Sequence record: PQ433349.1
From: Escherichia phage vB_Ec-G1
Direction: 5' to 3' (one strand)
Length of the DNA: 64,000 bases
Part shown: positions 34,314 to 58,589 of the stretch, in pieces
Layout: every line of letters begins with the position of its first letter
Position numbering within the stretch: the first letter of the stretch is position 1
Translations under genes and position numbers: made by a program
The notes under the pieces: generated by a model
Told to the model about the DNA's origin: nothing
The model's input: only the letters and a program-made list of their open reading frames with translations
Database searches by the model: none

Positions 34314-34332
34314 ATTATTTGGAGTTAAAATC

Positions 34333-39905: not shown

Positions 39906-39926
39906 GCCCCCTTTGAGGATGAAATC

Positions 39927-43672: not shown

Positions 43673-43692
43673 GATTATACAAGGGGCGCACT

Positions 43693-43720
43693 AAGCGCCC
43701 TTTATTTTTGCCCGAACAAT
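43693..43720 (+). terminator. rho-independent terminator closing the cassette array
   Basis: AGGGGCGC-acta-AGCGCCCT hairpin followed by TTATTTTTG. Confidence 0.65.
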
Positions 43721-44688: not shown

Positions 44689-44709
44689 AAATAATAATCA
44701 TTCTCATAT
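44689..44709. promoter_or_regulatory. Fur-box-like operator site
   Basis: AAATAATAATCATTCTCATAT resembles the sites at 33541-33620. Confidence 0.35.
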
Positions 44710-44867
44710 AAATAATAGTCTGCTTGTCATGAGCGGGATTAGTTGACATTGTTCCGTCATATGATGAAGTTGCCAAACCATTGATAAATAAGTGTTTGTG
44801 TGATTTATAATCAAGTGGCCCACCTTGTCGCTATGTTGGCATGAGCCTTGCATAAGTCATTGAATAC

Positions 44868-44888
44868 GAATGATAATTATTCTCATTC
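44868..44888. promoter_or_regulatory. Fur-box-like near-perfect palindrome
   Basis: GAATGATAAT-T-ATTCTCATTC, 10-1-10 inverted repeat with one mismatch. Confidence 0.45.
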
Positions 44889-45228
44889 GCATGATATTTG
44901 GGAATTGTCGCTGCGTGGACCTGACGGCCCGAAAATTCGCGTTAAGCACTTCTTACGTATGCGCCATGATTTTTGCCATATGATATTGATTCTATTAGAT
45001 ATTCTTGCCATGATTGCCATGAAACAGGGTGTCCCGAAATAATCTCTCCCCGTAGATATTTTGGGTTACTTTTTATACAAGAGTGGGGTGTCAAAAATAA
45101 TCGGTATATATGGGATAATTGATAGGAATCCCCTATGATAATTCGATTGTAATTCCCTAAGATTGATCGTATGATGTTGGTGATTGATGATTGCCATGAA
45201 AGATGGCTAACGATGAGAGGAGATTGTC

Positions 45229-45603
45229 ATGCAAGAGAGTAAAAATGTTCCGTTGAGTAGTGCAACATTGCTTCGCTTCTATAAAGCATGGATTGCCAAC
45301 TATCCTGCAATGAATCGCACAACGAGTGGCTTATGTGGTTGTCTGGTAGATTATGTAAATGATTTTGTTGGTGAGACAACCAGAGAAGAAGATAGAAGAT
45401 GGCGGGATAGTTTGTTGGACCGTTTGAAATATGAAATGAGGAAACAATTTACATGTGCAGGGCTGGACTATAATCTTCCGTTCAATGCAGATTGCATGGA
45501 TTACCTTTCAGAGTGTATAAACTTGGCGTGTCATACCAACACGTTACGTCTTCAGTGGGTGAAAGACAGAATTGAAGATGCAAATAATGCTTGCATTGAA
45601 TAA
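45229..45603 (+). CDS. hypothetical protein, member of 5-copy paralog family
   Basis: 124 aa; shares FY..W...GLC, LPF and R..WVKDR pattern with four other ORFs. Confidence 0.55.
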   Translation: MQESKNVPLSSATLLRFYKAWIANYPAMNRTTSGLCGCLVDYVNDFVGETTREEDRRWRDSLLDRLKYEMRKQFTCAGLDYNLPFNADCMDYLSECINLACHTNTLRLQWVKDRIEDANNACIE

Positions 45604-45652
45604 AGATGTTTGTATAATGGATGACATAACAGATAGCCAATGAGGAGATGAA

Positions 45653-45862
45653 ATGAAGAATTTGAAAACTGTCACAATGTTCTTGACTGATCCTACACGT
45701 GTGCAAGCACTGGCTAAAGCCAGCCGTGTAGCTGTAGAATTCCAAAACTTTAAGCCGTCCGTTGTGACAGGCAGTGAAACGTGTGTTATCGATTTCATTA
45801 ACGAATACTTCCGAGGGAATCCGGTTGGTCGTTACTTCATTAAGGGTCTAAAGGATGCATAA
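45653..45862 (+). CDS. hypothetical protein (69 aa)
   Basis: Track ORF with GAGGAG RBS. Confidence 0.5.
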   Translation: MKNLKTVTMFLTDPTRVQALAKASRVAVEFQNFKPSVVTGSETCVIDFINEYFRGNPVGRYFIKGLKDA

Positions 45863-45863
45863 C

Positions 45864-46085
45864 ATGAAACGCATGAAAATTCGTATTGAGAATGATGGTG
45901 GTTATAAAGGATTGGCACATGCAAAATTTCCACTTGTGCTGGAAGCTACGGTGGAATACAGTGGGCTTGCTCATGTGCGATTCTCGAAGATGATGGAAGT
46001 GCAGGAATGGTTTTGGGACGAGATAGATGCACGAGAAGGGGAAGATTATGTTTTCCTTCCTCACGAATATGAAATTGTTTATTAA
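45864..46085 (+). CDS. hypothetical protein, paralog of 50474..50695
   Basis: Track ORF trimmed to ATG; shares MKIR..., EWF(W/E), EG.DYVF motifs. Confidence 0.5.
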   Translation: MKRMKIRIENDGGYKGLAHAKFPLVLEATVEYSGLAHVRFSKMMEVQEWFWDEIDAREGEDYVFLPHEYEIVY

Positions 46086-46097
46086 AGGTTGTGTGCA

Positions 46098-46337
46098 ATG
46101 ATCACACCACAACAGAATGAAGCAGCAATGGATCTTCTTGATAGTTTGTATTTCGATAATTGGTACTCTGAATGTGAATGGATGAATATGCAAACTCTGA
46201 AAGAGAAGACAAAAGCGTTGATTACAGTAGATCAATTTCTTGCAGAGACGGAAAGAATGAATTATGATATGGTATCTCGCGCACGACGCGTTTCCATTTT
46301 CAATAAAATGTTAGCATTATGGGGAGGTAGAAAATGA
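46098..46337 (+). CDS. hypothetical protein
   Basis: Track ORF 46089..46337 trimmed to first ATG. Confidence 0.5.
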   Translation: MITPQQNEAAMDLLDSLYFDNWYSECEWMNMQTLKEKTKALITVDQFLAETERMNYDMVSRARRVSIFNKMLALWGGRK

Positions 46338-46795
46338 GACAACCATCTATACTGGAAGCGCATGTGCAATGTGTTGTAGATTATGTCAAAGAACACTCAA
46401 GTTTGTTGAATGTAACCTGTGCAGTGCAAAACGATGTAGGTATTGTCTGTGTGCAACATATCTTATCTGAAACTCGTTATGAAGTATTTCGTGCCACGTT
46501 GTTTGGATGTGATCGAGTGCATGTAAACTTCCTGGACTCCAATTATCGTTATGCTTTAGAAAATATTGATGATTATCTTCCTTGCTCTCCGACAGGATAT
46601 GTAATGGTAACAGCAAACGAAGTAACACCGAGCAACAGTGAACAGGAAGCTTTGTTACGGAAGAAAATACGCCAACTGCAAGTGTTGAATGAACTGAAAG
46701 AAGAGATTGAAAAAGAACTAAAAGAAGATTTTGGTATGCTTCCAAAAGACGCTTTGAAATGGTATGATGAGTTAGGAGGAGAGAACAATGTTTAA
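46334..46795 (+). CDS. hypothetical protein (153 aa)
   Basis: Track ORF. Confidence 0.55.
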   Translation: MRQPSILEAHVQCVVDYVKEHSSLLNVTCAVQNDVGIVCVQHILSETRYEVFRATLFGCDRVHVNFLDSNYRYALENIDDYLPCSPTGYVMVTANEVTPSNSEQEALLRKKIRQLQVLNELKEEIEKELKEDFGMLPKDALKWYDELGGENNV

Positions 46796-47246
46796 AGAAG
46801 GTCATGTCTACCGTTTCCAGGATGAGGATTATATGCGATTATATTCTACCTTTGATAACAGTATTGCTGCTATCATTGGAGAGAATTTTTTCGAGGTGTT
46901 GAGCACTGATGCAAATGGTAATATCTTGTCAATGGTTGTGATAGGTATGAGAGATGGTATTATCACTGCTAGTGATGGGGATCGTTACATAATCAATTCT
47001 GCTCATATAGATTATTTTGTTGACGGCGGTGTTCGTGGTGGTCGTGGAAAACCACAAGAAGAACCTATTGATAAAACAAAAGAAGAGTGGTATGTTGTAA
47101 TGACTGGTGACACGTGTATTTCTGGATCTCAAAGTTATGAAGAAGCTTTGAAAGAGGCAGCAGAGCATAAAATGTCTAATCCTACCGAAGAGGTTGAAGT
47201 TTATAAACGTTTGGTTGTTGCTACCATCGGCGTATCTTTTGTTTAA
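46788..47246 (+). CDS. hypothetical protein, tandem MFK-family paralog 1
   Basis: 152 aa; N-terminal MFKEGHVYRF and C-terminal EEALKEA...VEVYKRLVVATIG shared with next gene. Confidence 0.55.
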   Translation: MFKEGHVYRFQDEDYMRLYSTFDNSIAAIIGENFFEVLSTDANGNILSMVVIGMRDGIITASDGDRYIINSAHIDYFVDGGVRGGRGKPQEEPIDKTKEEWYVVMTGDTCISGSQSYEEALKEAAEHKMSNPTEEVEVYKRLVVATIGVSFV

Positions 47247-47258
47247 AAGGGGAATGTT

Positions 47259-48044
47259 ATGTTTAAAGTAGGTTTTGTTTATAATTTCAAATCGGAAGAT
47301 ACCAAAAATAATTTTGGTAAAGCTAGTATTCGTAACGCTTTCTTTGTAGGTTGCATTCAAGACAGTAAATTTAAAGTTTTGGATGTTGATTTTCTTGGTT
47401 CTGTGTCCAAGGTGAAGGTATTAGACACAAATAAAATCATCGAAGGTGGTTCTGGGCTTTTCCCTGAAGGTTATAAGCTTGTAAGTTGTATGGATTATGC
47501 TCGTTTTGAAGAACATACCCCTGAAGATTATGAAGATTCTCCTACAGGGGGCTGTGTCTTTGTAGAAGGTGGTGTCTATAAGTTTGCAAGTGAACAAGAT
47601 CGTAAGCTTTTCGCCAATTATATTGACGGCGGACAAACGACAAACAATGTAAACCGAAAAATTTCCGATCTTATTGGCGATGATCCTTTCGTGATCACAA
47701 AGATGGTTGGACAAGATGTAACAGCAATCCGTAGGCTTGTATGTAATACAAATCATGTAGCAGGTGAAGGCTGGTTCAAGGAAGCTTGTGCACTGCTAAT
47801 CAAAAGTGATAACCCTTATTTTAAAAATATTAAAGATGCTGTTGAGCCTAAACAAGAGGAACCCGCAGCGAATTTTAAACACTATGCTATTGTTAAAGGT
47901 ATGAATGTCCAACTGGTGTCACATTCTTACGAAGAGATCGCCACAGAAGCAAAAAAGATGAAGGAAGAATACCCAATTTCTACTGTTGAGATCTATGAGC
48001 GTATTGGTGTTGTTACTATTGAGCCTACTGCGGTAATAAAATAA
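47259..48044 (+). CDS. hypothetical protein, tandem MFK-family paralog 2
   Basis: 261 aa; MFKVGFVYNF start and YEEIATEA...VEIYERIGVVTIEP C-terminus. Confidence 0.55.
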   Translation: MFKVGFVYNFKSEDTKNNFGKASIRNAFFVGCIQDSKFKVLDVDFLGSVSKVKVLDTNKIIEGGSGLFPEGYKLVSCMDYARFEEHTPEDYEDSPTGGCVFVEGGVYKFASEQDRKLFANYIDGGQTTNNVNRKISDLIGDDPFVITKMVGQDVTAIRRLVCNTNHVAGEGWFKEACALLIKSDNPYFKNIKDAVEPKQEEPAANFKHYAIVKGMNVQLVSHSYEEIATEAKKMKEEYPISTVEIYERIGVVTIEPTAVIK

Positions 48045-48053
48045 GGAGTTATT

Positions 48054-48491
48054 ATGTTCAAAGTTAATGCTGTTTACTGTTTCAAAAGTAAAGCTGCCTG
48101 TGAAGCTTTCTCTATGATCTCTGATGAAAATTTCAAAATGGCAGCTTTGATTGAAGGGTCTTGTTTCCGCGTCGAGGATGTTAGTGAATCAGGGTCTGTT
48201 TGCTCATTGACTTTATTGGACAGCGGGGATATTATTGAAGCTGGACAGTATCCGTTCAGAAGTTGGGAGATATTGTTAGCTCGCGGAGAGCGTAACTTTT
48301 TTATGTGCGTGTCTGCGGGGGAAGTTGTGAAAGAAACTAAGGATGTTTCTGTTTACAATTCTGAATTTATAAGTTATAGTGAGTATCAACATCTGGAAGG
48401 CATTGTTGGTCACTTGTTATCTCTGATTGACATTGAATGTGACCTGCCTGAATCATTGAAAGAAGAGTTGAAAGCATTAGATCTGTTATAA
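48054..48491 (+). CDS. hypothetical protein, tandem MFK-family paralog 3
   Basis: 145 aa; MFKVNAVYCF start. Confidence 0.55.
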   Translation: MFKVNAVYCFKSKAACEAFSMISDENFKMAALIEGSCFRVEDVSESGSVCSLTLLDSGDIIEAGQYPFRSWEILLARGERNFFMCVSAGEVVKETKDVSVYNSEFISYSEYQHLEGIVGHLLSLIDIECDLPESLKEELKALDLL

Positions 48492-48518
48492 TGTTTCGCA
48501 CAACGAAAGGAGAATAAG

Positions 48519-48818
48519 ATGAATCTGACCGAACAGTTACGCCGTATTGCAAAAGAAGCTTCCTTCAACTTCCCTGTTGAAGAAGTGATTGAGACATGTT
48601 TTGCTGAAGCACGAGCGGGAAACTCTTCAAGAAATTTCACGCCATCTGATTTTGGTCTGGATAATTCCCCTACCCACCCAGGGGAGATCTACAATCAGGT
48701 GAAGTGGATGGATGAAGCAGTAGCAATTCTTCGTGAGCGTGGGCTTATTGTTTATAAAGAAATGGATCTGAACGGGGCATACGAGTGGATCACTATTGAT
48801 TGGTCGGAGGTGAAATAA
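48519..48818 (+). CDS. hypothetical protein (99 aa)
   Basis: Track ORF with AAGGAGA RBS. Confidence 0.55.
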   Translation: MNLTEQLRRIAKEASFNFPVEEVIETCFAEARAGNSSRNFTPSDFGLDNSPTHPGEIYNQVKWMDEAVAILRERGLIVYKEMDLNGAYEWITIDWSEVK

Positions 48819-49027
48819 TGGTTACTATCACGTTGACAGTTACACAAGAGCAAGCAGAAGAATTACGTGATGCACTGGCATATATGGGACGCTGTTATTA
48901 TATGCCTCACAAATCTCAAGATGTTTTTGCTACAGCCGTTGAGAAAGCTTTAAACAAATACCGAGAAACTCATGCCGTTCCTAAAGTATCAGCAGAAGAG
49001 TTTGGCACTTGGCACGAAGTTCACTGA
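48818..49027 (+). CDS. hypothetical protein
   Basis: Track ORF 48800..49027 trimmed to ATG after GGAGGTG RBS. Confidence 0.5.
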   Translation: MVTITLTVTQEQAEELRDALAYMGRCYYMPHKSQDVFATAVEKALNKYRETHAVPKVSAEEFGTWHEVH

Positions 49028-49037
49028 GGAGGTTTCG

Positions 49038-49271
49038 ATGAAAGGTAACAAGATGAAAGTTAATCAAGTGCCGAGCGCATACACTTTGTGGCTTGCGCGA
49101 GCGTTACACCAGACGATCAAAGACCCTAAGAAGCCAATGAAGAGTGGGAAGAAGTTTATGTCTAAGGGCAAAACAACCTTTGGCTTCACTCGTATGTCTG
49201 TTAAGATGAAAAGGCTGGGGTATAAGCCAAACTACGCTCGTTACCCTTCCGAATACAACTGGTTTGATTAA
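49038..49271 (+). CDS. basic hypothetical protein
   Basis: Track ORF 48972..49271 trimmed to ATG after GAGGAGG RBS. Confidence 0.5.
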   Translation: MKGNKMKVNQVPSAYTLWLARALHQTIKDPKKPMKSGKKFMSKGKTTFGFTRMSVKMKRLGYKPNYARYPSEYNWFD

Positions 49272-49286
49272 AGAGGAGAACAAAAC

Positions 49287-49571
49287 ATGAAAACATCTAT
49301 TCGCGTAAAACATGATCCAAACAGCAGTTACCCATATGTGTATGTTGAACGTCATGAAGGGGACTATTACACCATAAAACGTAAAGTCCCAACTGATACA
49401 GGGTTTAACTTTGATGTTATTGCACTGGATGATCAAGGTGTTGATAATCTGGTAAATGCATTACTCGCATTGAAGGAAGTACGACATGAAAATCAGACTA
49501 AAGGTAAAGTGGCTTTCGATTCTTGTGATCGTTTAGCCGAAGAGATTGCCGAATGGCGTGATACTCACTAA
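49287..49571 (+). CDS. hypothetical protein (94 aa)
   Basis: Track ORF with AGAGGAGA RBS. Confidence 0.55.
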   Translation: MKTSIRVKHDPNSSYPYVYVERHEGDYYTIKRKVPTDTGFNFDVIALDDQGVDNLVNALLALKEVRHENQTKGKVAFDSCDRLAEEIAEWRDTH

Positions 49572-49586
49572 AACAGGAGAAAGATT

Positions 49587-49763
49587 ATGGCTACTTTTCA
49601 ACAACTGAAAGATGTTTCACGTTTAGTAAGAAAAATCCGAGAAGCAGACGCTGCTGTGCGGAATGCATTAACGCCAGCAGAGCGTGAAGATCTTGAAGAG
49701 GAGGTGAAAACAGCCGAGAATGCTTTTGCTGCGTATCTTTCAACACTGTATACAGGAGGTTAA
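49587..49763 (+). CDS. small hypothetical protein (~58 aa)
   Basis: Below track cut-off; CAGGAGA RBS; fills gap. Confidence 0.4.
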   Translation: MATFQQLKDVSRLVRKIREADAAVRNALTPAEREDLEEEVKTAENAFAAYLSTLYTGG

Positions 49764-50078
49764 ATGTCAGAAGAACTTAAAGAATTTTATCAGGCATATC
49801 ATAACTGGCTGTTAGCTGGTGCTCCAGATAATAATCCTTTCTGGCATGATAAAGGATTATGTAGTTGCCTCTACCTTTGGACTGGAGGTTATGATGATCT
49901 AAATTATGAAATGCAAATGCAATTCCGTGAGGCAGGATTGTCTGAAGAATACCCGTTTGATGACGGAGACTGGTTTAAATATGATTTTGCACAAAGAAAC
50001 GGGCTGCTACATTTAAATGCTGCCCGTATAAAATGGGTAAAAGATCATGCTACACAGGAGGATGTGCAATGCCTATAG
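49764..50078 (+). CDS. hypothetical protein, member of 5-copy paralog family
   Basis: 104 aa; FYQAYHNWL...GLCSCL...R..WVKD pattern. Confidence 0.55.
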   Translation: MSEELKEFYQAYHNWLLAGAPDNNPFWHDKGLCSCLYLWTGGYDDLNYEMQMQFREAGLSEEYPFDDGDWFKYDFAQRNGLLHLNAARIKWVKDHATQEDVQCL

Positions 50079-50269
50079 TGTTTGTTTTCTTGGCAATTGT
50101 TATGGTTGTTCTTTTCGCCGCATGGCTTTGGGATTTTGACCCAGGAGCCGCGCAGCAAAGAGCTACAGACTTGAAAGAACAATGTATTGTGCTCAAACAT
50201 GAACGAAATGCGGAGAAATTTCTTGACCTGGAGTGTGATCGCCTTGTAAGATACAAGCAAGATAAATAA
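50069..50269 (+). CDS. small membrane protein
   Basis: Track ORF 50033..50269 trimmed to ATG after AGGAGGA RBS; N-terminal transmembrane helix. Confidence 0.5.
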   Translation: MPIVFVFLAIVMVVLFAAWLWDFDPGAAQQRATDLKEQCIVLKHERNAEKFLDLECDRLVRYKQDK

Positions 50270-50283
50270 CTTTGAGGTGCAAA

Positions 50284-50472
50284 ATGGTAATTGAGATTAA
50301 ACTTGAATATGCTGGGGCTGTTGCCTTGATCGCACAAATGCTTGGAGCAAAGATTGAAGAAGTGTATATCAACGCCTGGAGCGTAGAGATTGATGTTCCT
50401 ATGGACAACATTGCTAATCGCTTGCTGGTGGCAGAGTGTGAACGCACCAACATAATCTACAAAGGAGCATAA
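50284..50472 (+). CDS. small hypothetical protein
   Basis: Track ORF 50272..50472 trimmed to ATG after GAGGTG RBS. Confidence 0.45.
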   Translation: MVIEIKLEYAGAVALIAQMLGAKIEEVYINAWSVEIDVPMDNIANRLLVAECERTNIIYKGA

Positions 50473-50473
50473 T

Positions 50474-50695
50474 ATGAAAATTAGAGTTTGTGATGTATTG
50501 GGTTATGTTGGTTTTGAGAATGTTCAGATTCCTTTTGTTGTTGAAGCACATCTTGTTAGTGAGGATATGACAACATTCTTTGTTACGATAGAAGAAATGT
50601 CTAAAGTTGAGGGATGGGAGTGGTTTGAAGAAGATGTTTGGGAAGGTTGTGATTACGTATTTTTCTCTGACGAAGTGAATGTTCTTGCGGAGTAG
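50474..50695 (+). CDS. hypothetical protein, paralog of 45864..46085
   Basis: Track ORF; shared motifs. Confidence 0.5.
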   Translation: MKIRVCDVLGYVGFENVQIPFVVEAHLVSEDMTTFFVTIEEMSKVEGWEWFEEDVWEGCDYVFFSDEVNVLAE

Positions 50696-50697
50696 GT

Positions 50698-50904
50698 ATG
50701 TCTTGTTTTACAAAAGCAGTGTCCATATGTAAGAAACAGTATGAAAGTGATTACGGAATATTTAATATTCCAGTAGATCATACAGTGTATTGTTCATGTG
50801 GTGGCAGAATGAAGAAAACAGTGATTTATGCGGATAATGGAGATGAACTTGTTCCAGTTATGGTTTGCAAAGCTTGTCATTCTGTTAAAACATTAAAAGC
50901 GTAA
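50698..50904 (+). CDS. small zinc-ribbon-like protein
   Basis: 68 aa; CSCGG...CKACH cysteine pairs. Confidence 0.45.
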   Translation: MSCFTKAVSICKKQYESDYGIFNIPVDHTVYCSCGGRMKKTVIYADNGDELVPVMVCKACHSVKTLKA

Positions 50905-51000
50905 GGAGTCGGGACACCCGACGATTGGAGCTAAAAATTTTGCGTACAACCCTTTCCGCCCAACAGGGGGCGCATCGGGTAAACAAAGAGGAGAGTTTAT

Positions 51001-51399
51001 ATGAAAAAGATTATCGTAGGTTTATTGTTACTCATTGCATCTCTTGGAACAGCGAATGCATCTCAAGTTTATGAGTGTGTATCAGACGTAGTTGTTAAAA
51101 ATCTGAAAGGTGAAGTGATTTCTGGTCCTAAGAAAATGGCTTCTGTTGTCATTAATAAAGACAACTCCTTTATCCTTAAAAATTCGGGTGGTGCTTTGAT
51201 GAGCGGTATTCTTCAAAACACAGGAGGAAAGAGTAAAGATGGAAGTTCTATGTACGGTTCACAGCAGTTTATTGGCACTACCGAAGTTGTGATGATGCGC
51301 ACAGAGTATCGAGATACTTTAGCTTGGTTTGCATTTCTAAAAAATGATAAAACAATAACGAATGTTCTTACTCTAGAAGCTGATTGTACGCAACGATAA
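51001..51399 (+). CDS. secreted hypothetical protein
   Basis: 132 aa; signal peptide MKKIIVGLLLLIASLGTANA. Confidence 0.55.
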   Translation: MKKIIVGLLLLIASLGTANASQVYECVSDVVVKNLKGEVISGPKKMASVVINKDNSFILKNSGGALMSGILQNTGGKSKDGSSMYGSQQFIGTTEVVMMRTEYRDTLAWFAFLKNDKTITNVLTLEADCTQR

Positions 51400-51409
51400 G
51401 GGGGGATTT

Positions 51410-51856
51410 ATGACTAAAGTGAGGCATTACGCTGTAAACTGCAACGATGCTTGGCGTTTGTGTCCTGATGATCCGACAGAAGGCACATTTGTAAGATATG
51501 AGGATTATAAAGAGTTATCGGATGCTGTGATCGCATTGTTAACTGATATCCGTTCACGTTATCCAGGACAAGATTTCACTTGCCCTCACATCAAACTTCT
51601 TGCTTGTCTGGTAGAAGGTGAGAAAGAAGTGGAAGATGGCTTCAAGTGTGTAGAGTATCAAGGTGAAACTTTAGATGTTCCTGAATTTGTTAATTATATT
51701 GCAACAGATTCGAGTGGCGAGCGTTATGGCTACAGCCATAAGCCAGAGATTCCTGATTGGATTCCCGCTTGGAGATATTCCGTTAGTACCGGAGACTATA
51801 TCTTCCTTGGTGTAGGTAGTAGTAAGGATTGGCGTTTCTCTTTGACAGAGGTTTAA
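51410..51856 (+). CDS. hypothetical protein (148 aa)
   Basis: Track ORF. Confidence 0.55.
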   Translation: MTKVRHYAVNCNDAWRLCPDDPTEGTFVRYEDYKELSDAVIALLTDIRSRYPGQDFTCPHIKLLACLVEGEKEVEDGFKCVEYQGETLDVPEFVNYIATDSSGERYGYSHKPEIPDWIPAWRYSVSTGDYIFLGVGSSKDWRFSLTEV

Positions 51857-51860
51857 TAAT

Positions 51861-52124
51861 ATGGAAGAAACATTACCAGCAGCATATCGTTTGAATGATG
51901 AGCGTATTTGGGAGTGGACCGACGTTTCTTGTTTTTACCCTGAAATAGTTCAGTATTGGCGAGCGAAAGGGTGTGTTGTAGTTATCAACCCTTGTGGACC
52001 AGTGGATGAAGATTGCTTGTATCTCGATGGAAAGTGGCACAGTTATTGTCGCTGGCCTTTTGAGTGGATGTGTAAAGAAGATCTCCCAGAGGGTTGGGAG
52101 TATCCAAAAGCAAATAGGAGATAA
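51861..52124 (+). CDS. hypothetical protein (87 aa)
   Basis: Track ORF. Confidence 0.5.
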   Translation: MEETLPAAYRLNDERIWEWTDVSCFYPEIVQYWRAKGCVVVINPCGPVDEDCLYLDGKWHSYCRWPFEWMCKEDLPEGWEYPKANRR

Positions 52125-52125
52125 T

Positions 52126-52488
52126 ATGTCTAAAGATTTTGTTGAAGTGTTTGTCAAAGATGAAGAAACTGGTTTAGGCACGGGTTTCATTTGTGAAGAA
52201 ACTTTTAAACGTGAACAAGAAAAAGCTATCCTTATGCGAAACTATGATCATGCATTAGAACAATGGAAAAATGCAGAACAAAAATGCAAAAACCTTTATG
52301 CAGAAAATAGAAAACTACAAGATCAAATGGAGTTGTTAGCTATCAGTTTACGATCTCTCATTTTGGCTGTAGAAGATGGTTTTAAAAATCCAGATGGTTT
52401 TCCTGTGAGCGATATTGAACATGATTTGTATCTTGCTCGTGGTGCTTACTTTTATGTTAAACAGAAGTCTGTAGAAGGAGAGAAGTGA
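52126..52488 (+). CDS. hypothetical coiled-coil protein
   Basis: Track ORF 51994..52488 trimmed to ATG after AGGAGA RBS, avoiding overlap with upstream gene. Confidence 0.5.
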   Translation: MSKDFVEVFVKDEETGLGTGFICEETFKREQEKAILMRNYDHALEQWKNAEQKCKNLYAENRKLQDQMELLAISLRSLILAVEDGFKNPDGFPVSDIEHDLYLARGAYFYVKQKSVEGEK

Positions 52489-52685
52489 TGGAAGAAAAAC
52501 TGGAACGTATTATCGAGTTAGCCATGTCTATTGGCTACGACGATTGTTTTCTCCAAACTATCGGAGAAACACAGAACGATTACGACTCTTGGGTGAAAGA
52601 GTTGGAAGAACTCAAAACTTCCTTGATTGCTGACTTTGCTGAAGCAGAGGATAAAGCGGATCGTTACAACTATCTGTGTCGATAA
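52485..52685 (+). CDS. small hypothetical protein (66 aa)
   Basis: Track ORF. Confidence 0.5.
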   Translation: MMEEKLERIIELAMSIGYDDCFLQTIGETQNDYDSWVKELEELKTSLIADFAEAEDKADRYNYLCR

Positions 52686-52687
52686 AC

Positions 52688-52715
52688 CTTGACATTTCTT
52701 TTATGTATGGTATAC
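52688..52715 (+). promoter_or_regulatory. sigma70-like promoter
   Basis: TTGACA with TATACA about 16 bp downstream, upstream of 52747 gene. Confidence 0.4.
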
Positions 52716-52746
52716 ATACATTATCAACACAGATAAGGAGAGAAAA

Positions 52747-53091
52747 ATGATTAAACTTTTATGTGCAGAGTCTTCTGTCGAGTTCCTTAAGGAGGGTAAG
52801 CAGTATCTAGCTTCCCAAGTTATAGATAATCCAGGCTTGTTTTATATTACAGACGAAGAAGGGGATACCCTGTGTATCTCTTTGATTATGGATTGTGGTC
52901 GGTTCCATGTAATTGAGGATGACACTATTCGTCTCTTTGAGGTTTCCTATACAAAAGACAATGGTCCTGTCCGTAAATATCAAATTCCTGCAAAATCCGC
53001 CTTTAATGCATGTGTACGATTAGGTCAAATCTACGGGGACGATAAAGATTGTCGTGAAGACGTGTTTATCAATGTGATCGAGGTGGTGTAA
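52747..53091 (+). CDS. hypothetical protein (114 aa)
   Basis: Track ORF with AAGGAGAGA RBS. Confidence 0.55.
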   Translation: MIKLLCAESSVEFLKEGKQYLASQVIDNPGLFYITDEEGDTLCISLIMDCGRFHVIEDDTIRLFEVSYTKDNGPVRKYQIPAKSAFNACVRLGQIYGDDKDCREDVFINVIEVV

Positions 53092-53092
53092 C

Positions 53093-53365
53093 ATGAATAA
53101 AGATCGGTTTCTTTCTTTAGTCGCGGAAGCGCCTTTTGATGTTCTTGGGGTGAGATTATGGAAAGACAGAAACTATGGGTTAGATGTTCAAACATATTCT
53201 CTTTGGTTGGTTGGGGAGCACAGCTTAGATGAAAGCTTGTGCATGGGTAGGGATTCTCGTTCCCTCTGTTTAAAATTTAGAAGCTTAGAACGCGCAAACA
53301 AAGAGCAAGAAAAACTAACGAGGTGGCTAAATGAAAACAAGCGCAGGGTTGATGGAGTTTTATAA
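53093..53365 (+). CDS. hypothetical protein (90 aa)
   Basis: Track ORF. Confidence 0.5.
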   Translation: MNKDRFLSLVAEAPFDVLGVRLWKDRNYGLDVQTYSLWLVGEHSLDESLCMGRDSRSLCLKFRSLERANKEQEKLTRWLNENKRRVDGVL

Positions 53366-53657
53366 AATTTATCTAGCATGGATTGATGTTGGTGCTCCTG
53401 ATGGTAAACCTTTTCGGCGGGATTGTGGTTTGTGTGCCAACTTGTTCGATTATGTGCACAGAGGTAATTACAACCCCATTATAACAACCTTGTCAGATGA
53501 AATGCACGCACAGTTTTACCACAAAGGGTTGAGTCAAGGACTCCCTTTCAATGAGAACTACGATGCATATGTCTTAGAATCAGATGCAGAGGTATGTCAC
53601 CTGAACGTGGACAGGATTAATTGGGTAAGAGATCGTATTGCAGAGGAGGATGAATAA
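53331..53657 (+). CDS. hypothetical protein, member of 5-copy paralog family
   Basis: 108 aa; FYKIYLAWI...GLCANL...LPF...R..WVRDR pattern. Confidence 0.55.
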   Translation: MKTSAGLMEFYKIYLAWIDVGAPDGKPFRRDCGLCANLFDYVHRGNYNPIITTLSDEMHAQFYHKGLSQGLPFNENYDAYVLESDAEVCHLNVDRINWVRDRIAEEDE

Positions 53658-53884
53658 TGTCGGATTATAACTGGTATGAACTTGAGGCTGTTTGTCAGTT
53701 TTATGACTCAATAGTTCTGCGTGATCCAATCTGTCAAGAATTGAGTCGCCGTGCAAGTGCATTGGCAATCCGTGTTAAAATAAACGGTTGGAACGCAGAT
53801 TTGGAAAAAGAGTTGGAATTTCTCTTAGAAACAACACGTGTCTTCCACAAAGTGTTCCCTGAATGGTTCGAGATGGAAGAATGA
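53657..53884 (+). CDS. hypothetical protein (75 aa)
   Basis: Track ORF. Confidence 0.5.
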   Translation: MSDYNWYELEAVCQFYDSIVLRDPICQELSRRASALAIRVKINGWNADLEKELEFLLETTRVFHKVFPEWFEMEE

Positions 53885-54102
53885 TCATGTGGATTGTACG
53901 TCTTAAATATGATGGCCCTGATTCTTGGGTGCATAACGTTTGCGGTTGTGATTCCGAAGAAGCAGCACATAAAGCAGGAAGAGCAGTAAGTGCCTTCTAT
54001 AATGACAAACCTCTTTGTTTAGAAATGGCAGGTGTGGTTTGTATGAGCATGTTCGAATACTACTCTTACGAGATCAAAGAACATCAAGGCGAGTGGAAAT
54101 AA
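53881..54102 (+). CDS. hypothetical protein
   Basis: Track ORF 53863..54102 trimmed to ATG overlapping upstream stop. Confidence 0.45.
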   Translation: MIMWIVRLKYDGPDSWVHNVCGCDSEEAAHKAGRAVSAFYNDKPLCLEMAGVVCMSMFEYYSYEIKEHQGEWK

Positions 54103-54106
54103 ATCG

Positions 54107-54135
54107 TTGACAGAAGGATCTGTCTTTGTCATACT
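54107..54135 (+). promoter_or_regulatory. sigma70-like promoter
   Basis: TTGACA-N17-CATACT upstream of 54165 gene. Confidence 0.4.
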
Positions 54136-54164
54136 CATCTCATCAAAACAAAGAGGAGAAAATC

Positions 54165-54578
54165 ATGAAAAAGTTTATCTGCACCCGTTCTACTAACAGT
54201 GATATCCTTGTAGGCAAGGTTATCAAAGGAGAACTCTTCCACGCAAACGGTAAGAAATATATCTTGTTGAAAGATTCTTTCAACGGGGAGTATCCGCGCT
54301 GCACTTTCTTCAATTACAACACTCCATTTGCTTTAGAAGGAGATGCTTGGGAATGGGCTGAACTCAATCCTTGTTGTGAGGAAGAAGAATCTATGTTCTT
54401 AGGTTTAAACGTTTACCGTGTAGATTACACGATGTGTGGAGCGGAACATTCTATTCGCGTAGAAGCCGAGTCCAAACTACAAGCACCTTTCAAGGCAGGA
54501 TTGACTTTGGGTCATTGTTTGGCAAACATTGAAGATGTTGTGATCCAAAGAGTTGTTTTAGAGAAAGAGGCTATTTGA
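54165..54578 (+). CDS. hypothetical protein
   Basis: Track ORF 54126..54578 trimmed to ATG after AAGAGGAGAA RBS. Confidence 0.55.
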   Translation: MKKFICTRSTNSDILVGKVIKGELFHANGKKYILLKDSFNGEYPRCTFFNYNTPFALEGDAWEWAELNPCCEEEESMFLGLNVYRVDYTMCGAEHSIRVEAESKLQAPFKAGLTLGHCLANIEDVVIQRVVLEKEAI

Positions 54579-54631
54579 TAGAAGACGGTACAATATTTAA
54601 AATATAAAGATTAACCACAAAGGAGATAGAT

Positions 54632-54931
54632 ATGCAAGTTGAAGACCTGATCAAAATTTTGAATGAAGCCAAAGAGAAAGGTGCTATCAAGGACTGGAAA
54701 CGTGAAACAAGTGAAGACCTATCTCACTGTTGCCGAGAATTTTACATCGAAGGTATTGCTGACGATCACTATATTATCGAATGGTATATCAACTTAATGA
54801 CTCTTAAGCACGGTTCGTTTGAGGTTTGGTTTGATGACATTGATGTAAATGGTTTTCATCCTGGCTATAAAATTGCTATGCAGTTATCTTATCGTAGAGA
54901 AGTTGTAGCACATTTGGGTTTACATAACTAA
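54632..54931 (+). CDS. hypothetical protein (99 aa)
   Basis: Track ORF with AAGGAGA RBS. Confidence 0.55.
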   Translation: MQVEDLIKILNEAKEKGAIKDWKRETSEDLSHCCREFYIEGIADDHYIIEWYINLMTLKHGSFEVWFDDIDVNGFHPGYKIAMQLSYRREVVAHLGLHN

Positions 54932-54941
54932 GGAGAAAAGA

Positions 54942-55265
54942 ATGCAAGCAGTTGTTAACGAAGCTATTATGAACTTATCTTTCTTGTTAGCTGGTTTAGG
55001 AGGTGTTCTCATAGGTTTGGCTCTTATCTGGTGTATTCGTCGATTAATCGGGTACCGACAAAAAGGTGTTTCATGTTTTGTATCTTACAATTTTACAACT
55101 GCTTACAGCAATGAGGTTGGATCTGGTAATGCTCAAGCATTTTTACCAACATATCCTCCTACAGTAGAAGATATTCGAAACTTGGAAGTAGAACTTATGG
55201 GACTAAGTGATAACTATACATCTCTAGTTATTCAAAATATTTTTCGACTAAAACAGGAGGCGTGA
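54942..55265 (+). CDS. membrane-anchored hypothetical protein
   Basis: 107 aa; N-terminal transmembrane helix. Confidence 0.55.
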   Translation: MQAVVNEAIMNLSFLLAGLGGVLIGLALIWCIRRLIGYRQKGVSCFVSYNFTTAYSNEVGSGNAQAFLPTYPPTVEDIRNLEVELMGLSDNYTSLVIQNIFRLKQEA

Positions 55266-55478
55266 ATGAAGGTACATTATCCTCATCCCTTTGATCCTAA
55301 AAACAAAGCCGTAATTCTTCGTCAATGGCAACGGGTTTGTCGTACTAAATGTCCAATCAATAGCCCACACAATGTAGACAAGGACTATCTTGGCACATTT
55401 GTTGAATACACCTACATAGATAAAAACAAGCGTAAACAACATGTCGAGGAATACTGCTTAAAAGTAGAATGGCTGTAA
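55266..55478 (+). CDS. small basic protein (70 aa)
   Basis: Track ORF. Confidence 0.5.
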   Translation: MKVHYPHPFDPKNKAVILRQWQRVCRTKCPINSPHNVDKDYLGTFVEYTYIDKNKRKQHVEEYCLKVEWL

Positions 55479-55490
55479 ATAATAAATACC

Positions 55491-55519
55491 TTGACAAGTG
55501 TTTATTCGTTTTGTAAAGT
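55491..55519 (+). promoter_or_regulatory. sigma70-like promoter upstream of recombinase gene
   Basis: TTGACA-N17-TAAAGT. Confidence 0.45.
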
Positions 55520-55548
55520 GAGAATACAGCAATGGTTTAGGAGTGGTT

Positions 55549-56220
55549 ATGAAAAAGTTTGTTGTTTACAGTCGTCTTTCTAAACAGAAAAAAGGTGAGG
55601 CACAATATGGTATGGAGAGCCAAGAGAACGATATCCGTTACTTCTTAGACTCTGTGCCTGATGCTGAAGTTATTGGTCAATTTTCTGAATACTATTCGGG
55701 TAAGGGCGATTGGAAGCAACGTAAGGAACTGGTTAAAGCGGTTGAAATGTGTAAAGCTACCGGAGCAACTTTATTGGTAGCTAAAGTTGACCGCTTGGGT
55801 CGTAACAACGCCTCCGTAGCAACTCTTCTAGAAATGATCGATGTTAAGATAGCCATCATGCCAGACGCAGATAAAATGGTTATACAGCTTCTGTCTGTTC
55901 TGGCTGAACAAGAAGTTAGAGGTATTGCTGATCGTATTAAAAAGGGTCTTGCTGTAGCAAAAAGCAAAGGTGTTTTATTAGGCAGTGCTAATCCTAAAAC
56001 TGCTGCTGCACGTAGAAAAGGAAAAATGGAATACAATTCTGTTAAAGCAGACGCTTTTGCAGAGACATTCCGTGAACGCTTAGAAATCCTTAGAGATTTA
56101 AATACACCTTACAAAACTATTGCTGAAAAATTCAATAGTAAGAAAATCGCAACAGCACGTGGTGGTAAGTGGGATGCTAAAACTGTTTCTCGCTTGTGTG
56201 CTAGATTGAACATTAAATAG
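55549..56220 (+). CDS. serine recombinase (resolvase/invertase family)
   Basis: Y-S-R-L-S-K-Q catalytic serine motif, LLVAKVDRLGRN and ADRIKKGLAVAKSKG resolvase motifs, C-terminal DNA-binding-like region; ATG after AGGAG RBS. Confidence 0.7.
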   Translation: MKKFVVYSRLSKQKKGEAQYGMESQENDIRYFLDSVPDAEVIGQFSEYYSGKGDWKQRKELVKAVEMCKATGATLLVAKVDRLGRNNASVATLLEMIDVKIAIMPDADKMVIQLLSVLAEQEVRGIADRIKKGLAVAKSKGVLLGSANPKTAAARRKGKMEYNSVKADAFAETFRERLEILRDLNTPYKTIAEKFNSKKIATARGGKWDAKTVSRLCARLNIK

Positions 56221-56228
56221 GAGAGGAT

Positions 56229-56639
56229 ATGAAACAAGAAAATGAATCTGTAGATCACTTAATCATGCTGTCAGCCCTTTTTGCCGGATGGGACGTATTT
56301 TTTGAAAATTTGTTCAATTCTGCTACAGATGGTTCCGATTTTATGCGGCAGTTTAAACGACGAACTGTTGAGGACTATGCTTTCTATTCAGGTCGGATTG
56401 AAAAAGGTTACGAAGATACAAATACAACACTCACCATTAAAGTTTTAGATGTGATGTTTAGTGTTATAGATGCTATCGACGAAAGTCTTCCGATCCTGGA
56501 CAATTGTAATACGAAAGCCTATGTTTACAAAATAGCTCGTGCTTATGTGTCTGCAAACAGTTGTCTTCTTTCCACGCAGATTGCCGTGAACAATCTTGCC
56601 AACTTGTTCGACGAAGGAGAAACTTTTTATGACAATTGA
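56229..56639 (+). CDS. hypothetical protein (136 aa)
   Basis: Track ORF with GGAGAGGA RBS. Confidence 0.55.
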   Translation: MKQENESVDHLIMLSALFAGWDVFFENLFNSATDGSDFMRQFKRRTVEDYAFYSGRIEKGYEDTNTTLTIKVLDVMFSVIDAIDESLPILDNCNTKAYVYKIARAYVSANSCLLSTQIAVNNLANLFDEGETFYDN

Positions 56640-56994
56640 TTTGAAGTGTAAAAGGATTCTTTTAGATTTCTATAATAATTGGTTAGAACACCTCCGTCTC
56701 TTTCCAAGAGAAAGTGGTTACGCTGATGTTGGCTTATGCCGAGGTCTACGTATGTATATAAGTGATGAATTTCGGGCCGAGCATTCTTTAGCATATTCTG
56801 TTTATGGTATGCAATTAGCCAGTTTTGAAAACGCTGGCTTAGATACAACTTTCCCATTTAACACAGCAAAATCTTTTGAGCAAGAGTGTAAGGAAAAACG
56901 TTGCATGTTTAATGAAAAACGTGTACAGTGGGTTAAGGATCGAGTTAAACAACTGGAACAAGAGTTGGATTTCTTCTATGATGAGGCAGAATAA
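56629..56994 (+). CDS. hypothetical protein, member of 5-copy paralog family
   Basis: Track ORF 56596..56994 trimmed to ATG after AAGGAGA RBS; FYNNWL...GLCRGL...FPF...R..WVKDR pattern. Confidence 0.55.
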   Translation: MTIDLKCKRILLDFYNNWLEHLRLFPRESGYADVGLCRGLRMYISDEFRAEHSLAYSVYGMQLASFENAGLDTTFPFNTAKSFEQECKEKRCMFNEKRVQWVKDRVKQLEQELDFFYDEAE

Positions 56995-57266
56995 TGGATA
57001 GACAAACCTTAAAAACAATGGCAGATGCCACTAATTCCCCGTACTTTGAAAAAGTAAGTAAATTGGTAGCTCAAGCCGCAGAGGAAGGATATTATAACAT
57101 AAACATCCACAACCCAAGTCTTATACTAGAAATGCCAAGTGATAAGAAGATACAAGAAAGTATCTGTGAAGGTATTGTTAGTTACTGGCGCGAGCGTGGG
57201 TGTGGTGCAAACATGGCTTTAGACAGTGCAAACATTGTAAGATATATAAATATTTCTTGGGGGTGA
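56994..57266 (+). CDS. hypothetical protein (90 aa)
   Basis: Track ORF. Confidence 0.5.
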   Translation: MDRQTLKTMADATNSPYFEKVSKLVAQAAEEGYYNINIHNPSLILEMPSDKKIQESICEGIVSYWRERGCGANMALDSANIVRYINISWG

Positions 57267-57270
57267 TTTT

Positions 57271-57882
57271 ATGATTCAATGCACTCATATCCAAATTACT
57301 TGGAGAGATGAACTTTACCATTTGGGACAATTTACTGTAGGGGAAACATACCCTATCATTAAACATAATCCTAACATCGCAAACTTTGACAGGATGGTTC
57401 TTGTTGAGGACGATCTAGGTCAAACTTATTCTTTAGATCTAAAATATCCGTTTTCTTACGGCTACGATTGGATCGTTACTTTTGAAGACGTGGAGGAAAA
57501 TAAAACAATGAACGAAAAAAATTCTTGGTATTATCGTTGTGAACTGCCGCCAGTAGGTGAAAAGGTTATCTTTGTTCCTGATTTGGAAAGATATTCTTGG
57601 GACAGTTCTTATTCTGTTCCTAAAGAAGGCACCGAAGTTGAAGTTATTGCACATCGCACAACTTCACATGGTAACGATGTAGCAGTTGTTTTCTGGGATG
57701 ATGAAGGCGCTGCTTGTGCAGGTGGCTTTGTTGCAGGTAATTTTGAACCCCTGCCAGATCCTTTGAAGGAGGCAATTTTAGGCGTAGCTTCTTTTGGACT
57801 CTCTTACACATCTGCACAGGAGATCGTAGAAGGTATTTTAAACGGTACCGTTCCAAACGAAATTTTCAAACAGATTAAATAA
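57271..57882 (+). CDS. hypothetical protein (203 aa)
   Basis: Track ORF. Confidence 0.55.
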   Translation: MIQCTHIQITWRDELYHLGQFTVGETYPIIKHNPNIANFDRMVLVEDDLGQTYSLDLKYPFSYGYDWIVTFEDVEENKTMNEKNSWYYRCELPPVGEKVIFVPDLERYSWDSSYSVPKEGTEVEVIAHRTTSHGNDVAVVFWDDEGAACAGGFVAGNFEPLPDPLKEAILGVASFGLSYTSAQEIVEGILNGTVPNEIFKQIK

Positions 57883-57887
57883 CAGTT

Positions 57888-57915
57888 GCACCCCGTTCTT
57901 CGGGGTGTTATTGTA
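57888..57915 (+). terminator. rho-independent terminator (partial read-through likely)
   Basis: GCACCCCG-ttct-TCGGGGTG hairpin followed by TTATTGTAT. Confidence 0.55.
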
Positions 57916-57933
57916 TACGTAAAGGAGGAGATA

Positions 57934-58272
57934 ATGTATTACACTGAAGACTACATACTGTATAACTTTTTTAAAGGCTGGTTGAAATGGGCTGAACAAG
58001 CTCCTGTCGGAGATTGTGTTTTTCCTTGGGATTCTCGTCAAGGTTTGTGTCGTTGTTTGGAAGATTGGCTTATAACCACAAACTACAACTCAGAAACTAA
58101 GAAATCTACATCACAGAGACTAAAAATGTTATTTGAAGAAGATGGTTTAGATCCGATTTATCCTTTCGGTGAGGAAAGTTTCCACAATGGTCTTTTCCTT
58201 GGCACTCAACATTATGATAAAGATCGTGTAGATTGGGTAAAAGAAAAGGTAGCACAGTATGAATGGGGTTAA
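57934..58272 (+). CDS. hypothetical protein, member of 5-copy paralog family
   Basis: Track ORF 57886..58272 trimmed to ATG after AAGGAGGAGA RBS; NFFKGWL...GLCRCL...YPF...R..WVKEK pattern. Confidence 0.55.
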   Translation: MYYTEDYILYNFFKGWLKWAEQAPVGDCVFPWDSRQGLCRCLEDWLITTNYNSETKKSTSQRLKMLFEEDGLDPIYPFGEESFHNGLFLGTQHYDKDRVDWVKEKVAQYEWG

Positions 58273-58462
58273 GAATTATCACCGCTGGTTAGAAAGCTAT
58301 CTTAAGAAATGTGAACTTGGTGTTCCAGGTTATACTTACGACACGGACGAGATTCTTGATGAAATGGAAGTTTGGTTTAAAGAGCCTCGTGAACTATTGG
58401 CAAACATTCTAATGTCTTGGGACGGTACGGCACAAAGCATTGAAGGAGGTAGTAATGAGTAA
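58259..58462 (+). CDS. hypothetical protein (67 aa)
   Basis: Track ORF. Confidence 0.5.
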   Translation: MNGVKNYHRWLESYLKKCELGVPGYTYDTDEILDEMEVWFKEPRELLANILMSWDGTAQSIEGGSNE

Positions 58463-58589
58463 GAAGTTGTTTAATATTCGTGAGAATCGTGATGGATCGT
58501 TCTCTGTAGTCAATGAGTTTAATGTTTCTGTTGGAACTTTTATTACTAAACGTCAAGCAGAACAAGTAAGAGATACTTTAAACAAGTAA
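58455..58589 (+). CDS. small hypothetical protein (~44 aa)
   Basis: Below track cut-off; GGAGGT RBS. Confidence 0.3.
   Translation: MSKKLFNIRENRDGSFSVVNEFNVSVGTFITKRQAEQVRDTLNK

What the first reader, a model, noticed from the sequence alone, without database searches (positions are those of the whole stretch)
45229..58272. Five dispersed members of one small-protein family in the plus-strand block
ORFs at 45229, 49764, 53331, 56629 and 57934 (104-124 aa) share an ordered motif set: aromatic FY..W near the N-terminus, a GLC(x)CL cysteine pair, a central (L/Y)PF, and a C-terminal R..WV(K/R)D(R/K). Five diverged copies spread over 13 kb imply repeated duplication with retention, typical of families under diversifying selection such as anti-defence or host-targeting factors.
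Basis: seen in the sequence. Interest (0 to 1): 0.55.

Follow-up and report, generated by a model that had tools for sequence, protein, structure and literature searches.

The report
Five-copy early phage protein family
Five small genes in the early-gene block of this E. coli phage are true but very old relatives of one phage-only protein family (it includes phage N4 gp3) whose predicted fold matches no solved structure and whose function nobody has tested.

Summary
The window is a Phapecoctavirus-type E. coli myophage. It holds exactly five members of one family, at 45229, 49764, 53331, 56629 and 57934 on the + strand. They share 22-40% amino-acid identity and no detectable DNA similarity. 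All five match PHROG 2510 (unknown function) at E 1e-25 to 1e-31. The public annotation of phage ukendt already tags all five as pVOG VOG7392.

The family is large: 1531 clusters at 50% identity. It is essentially phage-only and includes the N4 gp3 homologue. It has no Pfam, NCBIfam or PDB relative.

Cys35, Pro72, Phe73 and Arg95 are invariant. Copies 4 and 5 have lost part of a conserved polar set.

"Diversifying selection" is only partly right:
- Orthologues show dN/dS of 0.02-0.45.
- Copies 2, 4 and 5 are 97-100% identical even in a Klebsiella phage.
- The first locus is hypervariable and mosaic, and copy number varies from 5 to 7.

The most likely role is early host-directed accessory proteins (takeover or counter-defence). 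The mechanism is unproven.

The parts
45229..45603 (+). Copy c1 (124 aa). It is the first gene after the ORF-poor stretch. It is a canonical member with the full conserved polar set. This locus is hypervariable among relatives, and the window's gene is a chimera of the N-terminus of c1a with the body of c1b.
49764..50078 (+). Copy c2 (104 aa). Canonical at most of the polar set but has Ala in place of Glu83 (read from the alignment). It is the most constrained copy: dN/dS 0.024, 99-100% identical in relatives including Klebsiella phage ZCKP1.
53331..53657 (+). Copy c3 (108 aa), the closest of the five to the family consensus. AlphaFold predicts a five-helix bundle at pLDDT 91.9. It has the highest dN/dS of the region (0.45), with changes clustered in loops. 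Relatives replace it with, or add to it, a c3b cassette.
56629..56994 (+). Copy c4 (121 aa). The ATG start has an upstream GGAG. It is degenerate at the conserved polar positions (Glu57 to Gly, Gln61 to Ser, His90 to Met). It is 97.5-100% conserved in relatives.
57934..58272 (+). Copy c5 (112 aa). The ATG start follows a terminator-like hairpin. It is degenerate at the polar positions (Glu57 to Arg, Gln61 to Leu, Asn92 to Asp). AlphaFold predicts the same five helices at pLDDT 95.2.
53657..53884 (+). 75-aa gene (PHROG 25020, unknown function). Its ATG overlaps the c3 stop codon (ATGA). In phage phi92 its homologue is fused to a c3-like domain in one protein, gp010. This suggests the two act together.
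57888..57908 (+). Terminator-like GC hairpin with a T-rich tail, just upstream of the c5 start. It matches the terminator annotated at the same place in phage Schickermooser.
43704..45228 (.). ORF-poor, AT-rich stretch upstream of c1, following a strong terminator at 43681-43703. Several related GenBank records begin inside it. It is probably the genome terminus plus the early control region (inferred).

Best explanation
The five genes are anciently diverged paralogues of a widespread, essentially phage-only domain family: PHROG 2510 / pVOG VOG7392, the family of phage N4 gp3. Each encodes a soluble, acidic protein of about 110 aa, predicted to be a compact five-helix bundle with a conserved core and variable loops.

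I infer that they are made early in infection from the left-end block of small genes. I infer that they act on host components as accessory takeover or counter-defence factors, each copy having its own partner or specificity.

The copies fall into two groups:
- A conserved set (c2, c4, c5) that is kept nearly unchanged even across host genera.
- A variable set (the c1 locus and c3/c3b) that is remodelled by cassette exchange and by recombination between tandem paralogues.

Shown here: homology, predicted fold, purifying selection, copy-number and allele variation, and gene position. Inferred: early expression, a host-directed role, and binding as the mode of action.
For: The family is real:
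- establish the homology.
- It has 1531 clusters at 50% identity with E<=1e-3, including proteins with 2-3 tandem domains.
- It appears in 253 phage records at 630 places, against one record among 72,556 plasmids, and that one is a P1-like phage-plasmid.

The fold:
- The c3 and c5 models have pLDDT 91.9 and 95.2, with the same five helices.
- The same fold is found in uncharacterised proteins of phages of Rhizobium, Achromobacter, Burkholderia, Delftia, Klebsiella and Pectobacterium.

The proteins are acidic and soluble, pI 4.5-5.3.

Position:
- In the listed N4-like and T7-like records the hit lies within about 5 kb of a record end.
- The N4 gp3 homologue lies between gp2 and RNAPII. PMC4496689 names gp1, gp2, gp15 and gp16 as early products.
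- phi92 gp006 and gp010 lie just after the left direct terminal repeat.
- Stephanstirmvirinae genomes end in direct terminal repeats (PMC12695924).
- Neighbours everywhere are arrays of small co-oriented ORFs without annotation.

The genes are functional: dN/dS is 0.02-0.45.

Accessory-type dynamics:
- Copy number is 5, 6 or 7 among genomes that are 95-98% identical.
- The centre of c1 cannot be aligned while its flanks are 90-98% identical.
- The c1 alleles are mosaic, and two independent c1a/c1b chimeras exist.
- Amino-acid changes in c3 cluster in loops.

The fusion of a c3-like domain with the homologue of the downstream gene in phi92 points to a protein partnership.
Against: - No experiment or paper on any member was found.
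- No similarity to any known anti-defence or takeover protein was found by sequence or fold.
- Early timing is inferred from position only. The promoter scan was not enriched.
- Copies 2, 4 and 5 are extremely conserved across E. coli and Klebsiella phages. That fits a conserved target or a phage-internal role better than an arms race.
- The many invariant polar residues (Cys35, Gln61, Asn92, Arg95) would be unusual for a pure protein-binding scaffold.
Confidence: 0.45

Rival explanations
1. The domain is a small enzyme or small-molecule binder built around an invariant Cys/Arg polar centre. On this reading it might modify a host molecule or sequester a signalling or metabolic one. Copies c1-c3 would be active, and c4 and c5 would be degenerate variants that only bind or regulate.
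For: In 127 representatives that are each under 50% identical, these residues are conserved: Cys35 100%, Arg95 100%, Gln61 94%, Asn92 92%, Glu57 88%, Glu83 78%, His90 75%, Asn74 73% and Asn37 69%. Cys35 sits at the N-terminus of helix 2, and His90/Asn92/Arg95 at the N-terminus of helix 5. All of these are kept in every hypervariable c1 allele. Both c4 and c5 have lost Glu57 and Gln61; c4 has also lost His90, and c5 has Asp in place of Asn92. That looks like loss of one site rather than random drift.
Confidence: 0.25
2. The proteins serve the phage's own machinery, for example as cofactors of early or middle transcription, of replication, or of protection of the genome ends, rather than attacking host functions.
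For: In N4-type phages the member lies directly after gp1 and gp2, the RNAPII cofactors (PMC4496689). It recurs near the left end of N4-like phages of Achromobacter, Erwinia, Delftia and Klebsiella. Copies c2, c4 and c5 are 97-100% conserved between E. coli and Klebsiella phages.
Against: The family occurs in phages with quite different transcription and replication strategies: T7-like, N4-like, rV5/phi92-like, T4-like, T1-like and a P1-like phage-plasmid. Copy number varies between 2 (found in the first 30 kb of phi92; the rest of that genome was not scanned) and 7, and whole copies come and go among near-identical genomes. That is typical of accessory genes, not core ones.
Confidence: 0.15
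3. The shared motifs are chance resemblances among unrelated short ORFs, or the ORFs are not real genes.
For: None beyond the weak c1-c5 pairwise score (E 0.05).
Against: Profile matches at E 1e-25 to 1e-47. The same predicted fold for the two most distant copies tested. Ribosome-binding sites upstream of each start. dN/dS well below 1. Conservation in more than 100 genomes.
Confidence: 0.01

Closest known systems
PHROG 2510 / pVOG VOG7392, including the phage N4 gp3 homologue, phi92 gp006 and gp010, and uncharacterised proteins of JG068, PhiW-14 and BcepSaruman
   Same: Direct membership. The HMM E-values are 1e-25 to 1e-31. The phage ukendt annotation tags all five orthologues VOG7392. The N4 gp3 homologue scores E 3.8e-22 against the family profile. 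BFVD models of the other phages' proteins match with TM 0.7-0.85.
   Different: Nothing structural. Phapecoctavirus carries 5-7 separate copies where most phages carry 1-3 or fused tandem domains. The family itself has no assigned function.
Left-end early anti-restriction and takeover genes of T7-type phages (for example T7 gp0.3 Ocr); comparison from general knowledge
   Same: Small acidic proteins encoded among the first genes to enter and be expressed. They are dispensable and variable between related phages.
   Different: No sequence or fold similarity was found. The proteins are only moderately acidic (net charge -3.5 to -10). Whether that rules out DNA mimicry was not tested. No inhibition of any defence system has been shown.
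Small phage 'sponge' proteins that bind immune signalling nucleotides (the Acb2 and Tad1/Tad2 type); comparison from general knowledge
   Same: About 100-aa early accessory proteins with a conserved polar site. Some are helical and oligomeric. Tandem-domain versions of this family could play the part of an oligomer.
   Different: No fold hit to any solved structure, although the PDB copy runs to 2026. No Pfam match. Ligand binding is untested.
Multi-copy small-ORF families in plastic regions of large lytic phages, such as the T4 hyperplastic regions and other paralogue sets in this same window
   Same: Several paralogue sets coexist in the + strand block. Members in a T4-like phage lie between DNA ligase and the baseplate genes, among unnamed ORFs.
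   Different: This family is far more widely distributed, across podo-, myo- and siphovirus-type genomes of alpha-, beta- and gamma-proteobacterial hosts. It also has an unusually strict invariant residue set.

Membership tests
PHROG 2510 / pVOG VOG7392 (N4 gp3-like, function unknown) | Significant full-length match to the family profile | tested here: met
   E 1.9e-25 to 1.8e-31 over about 105 residues for all five copies. VOG7392 labels on all five orthologues in phage ukendt.
PHROG 2510 / pVOG VOG7392 (N4 gp3-like, function unknown) | Ordered conserved residues: L..FY, W, GLC, E...QF..AGL, PFN, Y..E, H.N..R..WV | tested here: met
   c1 and c3 carry the full set; c2 carries it except Glu83, which is Ala. 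c4 and c5 keep the hydrophobic, Gly and Pro residues plus Cys35 and Arg95, but lack Glu57 and Gln61. c4 also lacks His90, and c5 has Asn92 replaced by Asp.
PHROG 2510 / pVOG VOG7392 (N4 gp3-like, function unknown) | Five-helix bundle fold shared with other members | tested here: met
   c3 pLDDT 91.9 and c5 pLDDT 95.2, with the same helix order. 17 BFVD matches at E<1e-3, TM up to 0.85.
Known anti-defence protein families | Sequence or fold similarity to a characterised anti-defence protein | tested here: not met
Known anti-defence protein families | Demonstrated inhibition of a defence system | not testable with these tools
   Needs experiments. No paper on any member was found.
Genes under diversifying (positive) selection | dN/dS above 1, or clearly above neighbours, among orthologues | tested here: not met
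   dN/dS 0.083, 0.024, 0.449, 0.061 and 0.083, against about 0.05-0.25 for most neighbours. Within c1 allele classes it is mostly 0.04-0.5, with one pair at 0.75 on 8 substitutions. Only c3 stands out, and it is still below 1. No site-model test was run.
Hypervariable or mosaic accessory locus | Divergent alleles between conserved flanks, recombinant alleles, and presence/absence variation | tested here: met
   Met for the c1 locus and for c3/c3b. Not met for c2, c4 and c5.
HEPN-type helical RNases (considered because of the H.N..R motif in an all-helical domain) | R-x4-6-H motif and the HEPN fold | tested here: not met
Papain-like or other Cys-His hydrolases | Alpha+beta fold with a Cys-His dyad | tested here: not met
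   The predicted fold is all-helical. His90 is replaced in 25% of members. There are no structural matches.

The most novel reading that the evidence does not exclude
The family is a so far unrecognised protein fold with an invariant Cys/Arg-centred site. Virulent phages of Proteobacteria (N4, T7-like, phi92/rV5-like and T4-like) would deploy it as a first-minute effector: an enzyme acting on, or a binder of, a host molecule or immune signal. Phapecoctaviruses would keep a fixed trio (c2, c4, c5) plus a recombining, hypervariable first-locus copy that tracks or evades variable host factors.
Probability: 0.2. Interest if true: 0.75.

Novelty: new member of a known kind. Interest (0 to 1): 0.45.

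Why it matters
The family reaches from N4 to T7-like, phi92-like and T4-like phages. It sits where phages keep their first-strike genes. It has a confident predicted fold that matches no solved structure, and a strict set of invariant residues. No function has been assigned to it.

This genome gives a natural experiment:
- Three near-canonical copies (c2 lacks Glu83) and two degenerate ones.
- Three copies frozen across host genera.
- One locus that is being reshuffled.

That makes it a practical entry point for finding what N4 gp3-like proteins do. It also offers a ready set of mutants (Cys35, Arg95) and natural chimeras for mapping specificity. If the role turns out to be ordinary, such as a structural helper, the finding is just one more catalogued phage family of unknown function.

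Tried and rejected
- Pfam, NCBIfam and PADLOC scans of the five proteins gave nothing meaningful. Pfam on ten longer relatives showed only one real extra domain, DUF551 in P0139.
- PDB sequence searches with a 5-sequence and a 115-sequence profile found nothing.
Distribution in chromosomal prophages was therefore not measured.
- A second word-index protein search with a broad alignment returned only 17 hits and no names.
- Literature searches for PHROG 2510, VOG7392, N4 gp3 and Phapecoctavirus early genes found no functional statement.
- The sigma-70 promoter scan of 43-59.5 kb was not above the shuffled expectation: 53 found against 47.8 expected.
- Rfam and tRNA scans of the window were empty.
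- Fur-box-like words upstream of c1 did not reach significance.
- The downstream neighbours of the five copies are not homologous to each other.
Full report
What the window is. The 13.5-kb stretch holding the finding is 95-98% identical to more than 50 Phapecoctavirus genomes (subfamily Stephanstirmvirinae; phAPEC8, ESCO5, Schickermooser, REC and ukendt types). In all of them nearly every gene here is labelled 'hypothetical protein'. The minus-strand half of the window encodes nucleotide-metabolism and auxiliary functions: anaerobic ribonucleotide reductase, a helicase, a glycosyltransferase and a tellurite-resistance homologue. The plus-strand block from about 28 to 62 kb is a dense array of small unannotated ORFs.

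The observation. The five ORFs are at the stated coordinates, and each has a GGAG-type ribosome-binding site before its ATG. They align over their whole length with 16 invariant columns. Pairwise BLASTP E-values are 1e-4 to 1e-19 for nine of ten pairs. All five hit PHROG 2510 at E 1e-25 to 1e-31. Profile searches of every six-frame ORF of the window find exactly these five. At the DNA level the copies are not detectably similar. The 'cysteine pair' is not a family trait. Only the first Cys is conserved; the second position is Asn in 69% of the family. The paralogy is already recorded in a public annotation: phage ukendt tags all five orthologues as pVOG VOG7392.

The family. An exhaustive HMM search of 1.84 billion representatives found 1531 clusters at E<=1e-3 and 530 at E<=1e-10. 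Most are single domains of 100-125 aa. Some carry two or three tandem domains. Two have an N-terminal membrane anchor, and one has an N-terminal DUF551 domain.

tblastn found it in 253 phage records at 630 places. The hosts are Escherichia, Klebsiella, Salmonella, Erwinia, Yersinia, Rhizobium, Achromobacter, Ralstonia and Delftia. Among 72,556 plasmids it appears only once, in a P1-like phage-plasmid.

One member is the homologue of phage N4 gp3, which lies directly after gp2 at the left end. Others are phi92 gp006 and gp010, just after the left terminal repeat. In the N4-like and T7-like records listed, the hit is within about 5 kb of a record end. No Pfam, NCBIfam or PADLOC model and no PDB sequence matches. 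No paper mentioning a function was found.

Across 127 representatives that are under 50% identical to each other, conservation is as follows:
- Cys35, Pro72, Phe73 and Arg95 are 100% conserved.
- Leu7, Phe10, Tyr11, Trp17, Gly33, Leu34, Gln61, Phe62, Leu67, Asn92, Trp98 and Val99 are above 90%.
- Glu57 is 88%, Glu83 78%, His90 75%, Asn74 73% and Asn37 69%.

Cys35 is at the N-terminus of helix 2. His90, Asn92 and Arg95 are at the N-terminus of helix 5. Copies c1 and c3 keep the whole polar set, and c2 keeps it except Glu83 (Ala). c4 has Gly, Ser and Met at positions 57, 61 and 90. c5 has Arg and Leu at 57 and 61, and Asp at 92. The proteins are acidic, pI 4.5-5.3, with no signal peptide or membrane segment evident in the sequences (no predictor was run). 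I could not obtain coordinates, so whether the polar residues form one pocket is untested.

Evolution among close relatives. Nei-Gojobori dN/dS over eight genomes is 0.083 (c1), 0.024 (c2), 0.449 (c3), 0.061 (c4) and 0.083 (c5). Most neighbouring genes lie between 0.05 and 0.25. All five are therefore real genes under purifying selection. Only c3 stands out, and its replacements cluster at positions 5-6, 44-50, 60-70 and 86-88, mostly in the loops.

Copies c2, c4 and c5 are 95-100% identical in all relatives sampled. They are 99%, 100% and 97% identical in Klebsiella phage ZCKP1.

The first locus behaves differently:
- Relatives carry one or two tandem genes (c1a, c1b), giving 5, 6 or 7 family members per genome.
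- The protein database holds more than 20 c1-type clusters, from 97% down to 48% identity. They share the ends MQESKNVPLSS... and ...QWVKDRIEDANNACIE.
- In metagenomic relatives the flanks are 90-98% identical, while the centre of c1 (45352-45528) cannot be aligned.
- The window's own c1 is the first 11 residues of c1a joined to the body of c1b.
- Phage ECML-183-2 carries a different chimera that switches at the PFN motif.

A c3b cassette, 50% identical to c3, is added in three genomes and replaces c3 in ZCKP1.

The five copies are no closer to each other (22-40%) than to members of a T4-like or an N4-like phage (21-43%). Ancient duplication and separate acquisition therefore cannot be told apart.

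Context clues:
- c1 is the first ORF after a 1.5-kb ORF-poor, AT-rich stretch that follows a strong terminator. Several related records start inside that stretch. Stephanstirmvirinae genomes end in direct terminal repeats (PMC12695924; phi92 annotation). The block is therefore probably the left-end early region. This is an inference.
- The stop codon of c3 overlaps the start of a 75-aa gene (53657-53884). In phi92 the homologues of these two genes are one protein, gp010. Residues 7-112 match c3 at E 9e-14, and residues 120-193 match the 75-aa product at E 7e-7. That suggests the two act together.
- The genes next to the other copies are unrelated to one another and have no annotation.

Interpretation. 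The best-supported reading is that these are accessory, early, host-directed proteins built on one conserved scaffold. There is a fixed trio and a variable, recombining subset. I put this at 0.45. The main rival, not exclusive with it, is that the invariant Cys/Arg-centred polar set marks an enzymatic or ligand-binding site, with c4 and c5 as degenerate variants (0.25). A phage-internal role such as a transcription or replication cofactor is possible (0.15). It fits poorly with the spread across phages of different strategies and with the copy-number variation. Chance similarity is excluded.

Verdict. The claim of diversifying selection holds only for the first locus, and there in the form of recombination and allele exchange. 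It holds weakly for c3. The function remains unknown. The family is a good, tractable target: a predicted fold unlike any solved structure, a strict residue set, an N4 gp3 homologue, and natural chimeras. Nothing here yet lifts it above the many uncharacterised early phage families.

Noticed in passing
window 46788-47246, 47259-48044, 48054-48491: A second paralogue set of three adjacent genes with similar N-termini (MFK.G.VY.F). The middle one is about double length. Two of them are labelled 'goF / RNA metabolism modulator' in one GenBank record. BLASTP between them gives E 1e-5 to 1e-8.
   Followed up: partly
window 45855-46085 and 50474-50695: A pair of 35%-identical small genes (pVOG VOG6032 in phage ukendt). 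Each lies two genes downstream of a family copy (c1 and c2). This hints at an old segmental duplication of a three-gene module.
   Followed up: partly
window 55543-56220 (and 55266-55478): A serine recombinase / DNA invertase gene sits inside the block of small genes and is truncated in phage Schickermooser. The adjacent 70-aa ORF is labelled 'ABC transporter ATP-binding protein' in many records, which looks like a propagated misannotation.
   Followed up: partly
window 43704-45228: An ORF-poor, AT-rich stretch full of short ATGAT/ATCAT-type direct and inverted repeats, after a strong terminator at 43681-43703. Several related records begin inside it, so it is probably the genome terminus and early control region. 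Fur-box-like words occur there, but the consensus search was not significant.
   Followed up: partly
L009 (phage phi92) 3307-3891: phi92 gp010 fuses a c3-like domain to the homologue of the window's 75-aa gene at 53657-53884. Its family domain also has the GLC motif changed to NIC.
   Followed up: yes
window 739-1683 and 1691-2638; 5824-6093 and 7115-7459; 34255-34530 and 39867-40211: Further paralogue pairs elsewhere in the window. They include two adjacent glycosyltransferase genes that are 41% identical.
   Followed up: no
search results for window 45000-58500: Five records named 'Campylobacter phage' (for example B15, host Campylobacter jejuni) are about 97% identical to these E. coli phages. 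The host label is odd and may reflect contamination or mislabelling.
   Followed up: no
L013 (E. coli plasmid pZ1323HEC0010-2) 5968-6447: The only plasmid hit is a 159-aa member on a 93-kb phage-plasmid that carries phd/doc and a DUF2829 gene. The family therefore also occurs in a temperate element.
   Followed up: partly
window 50069-50269: A small predicted membrane protein (PHROG 15662) overlaps the 3' end of c2. Two distant family members carry their own N-terminal membrane anchors (P0039, P0133).
   Followed up: no
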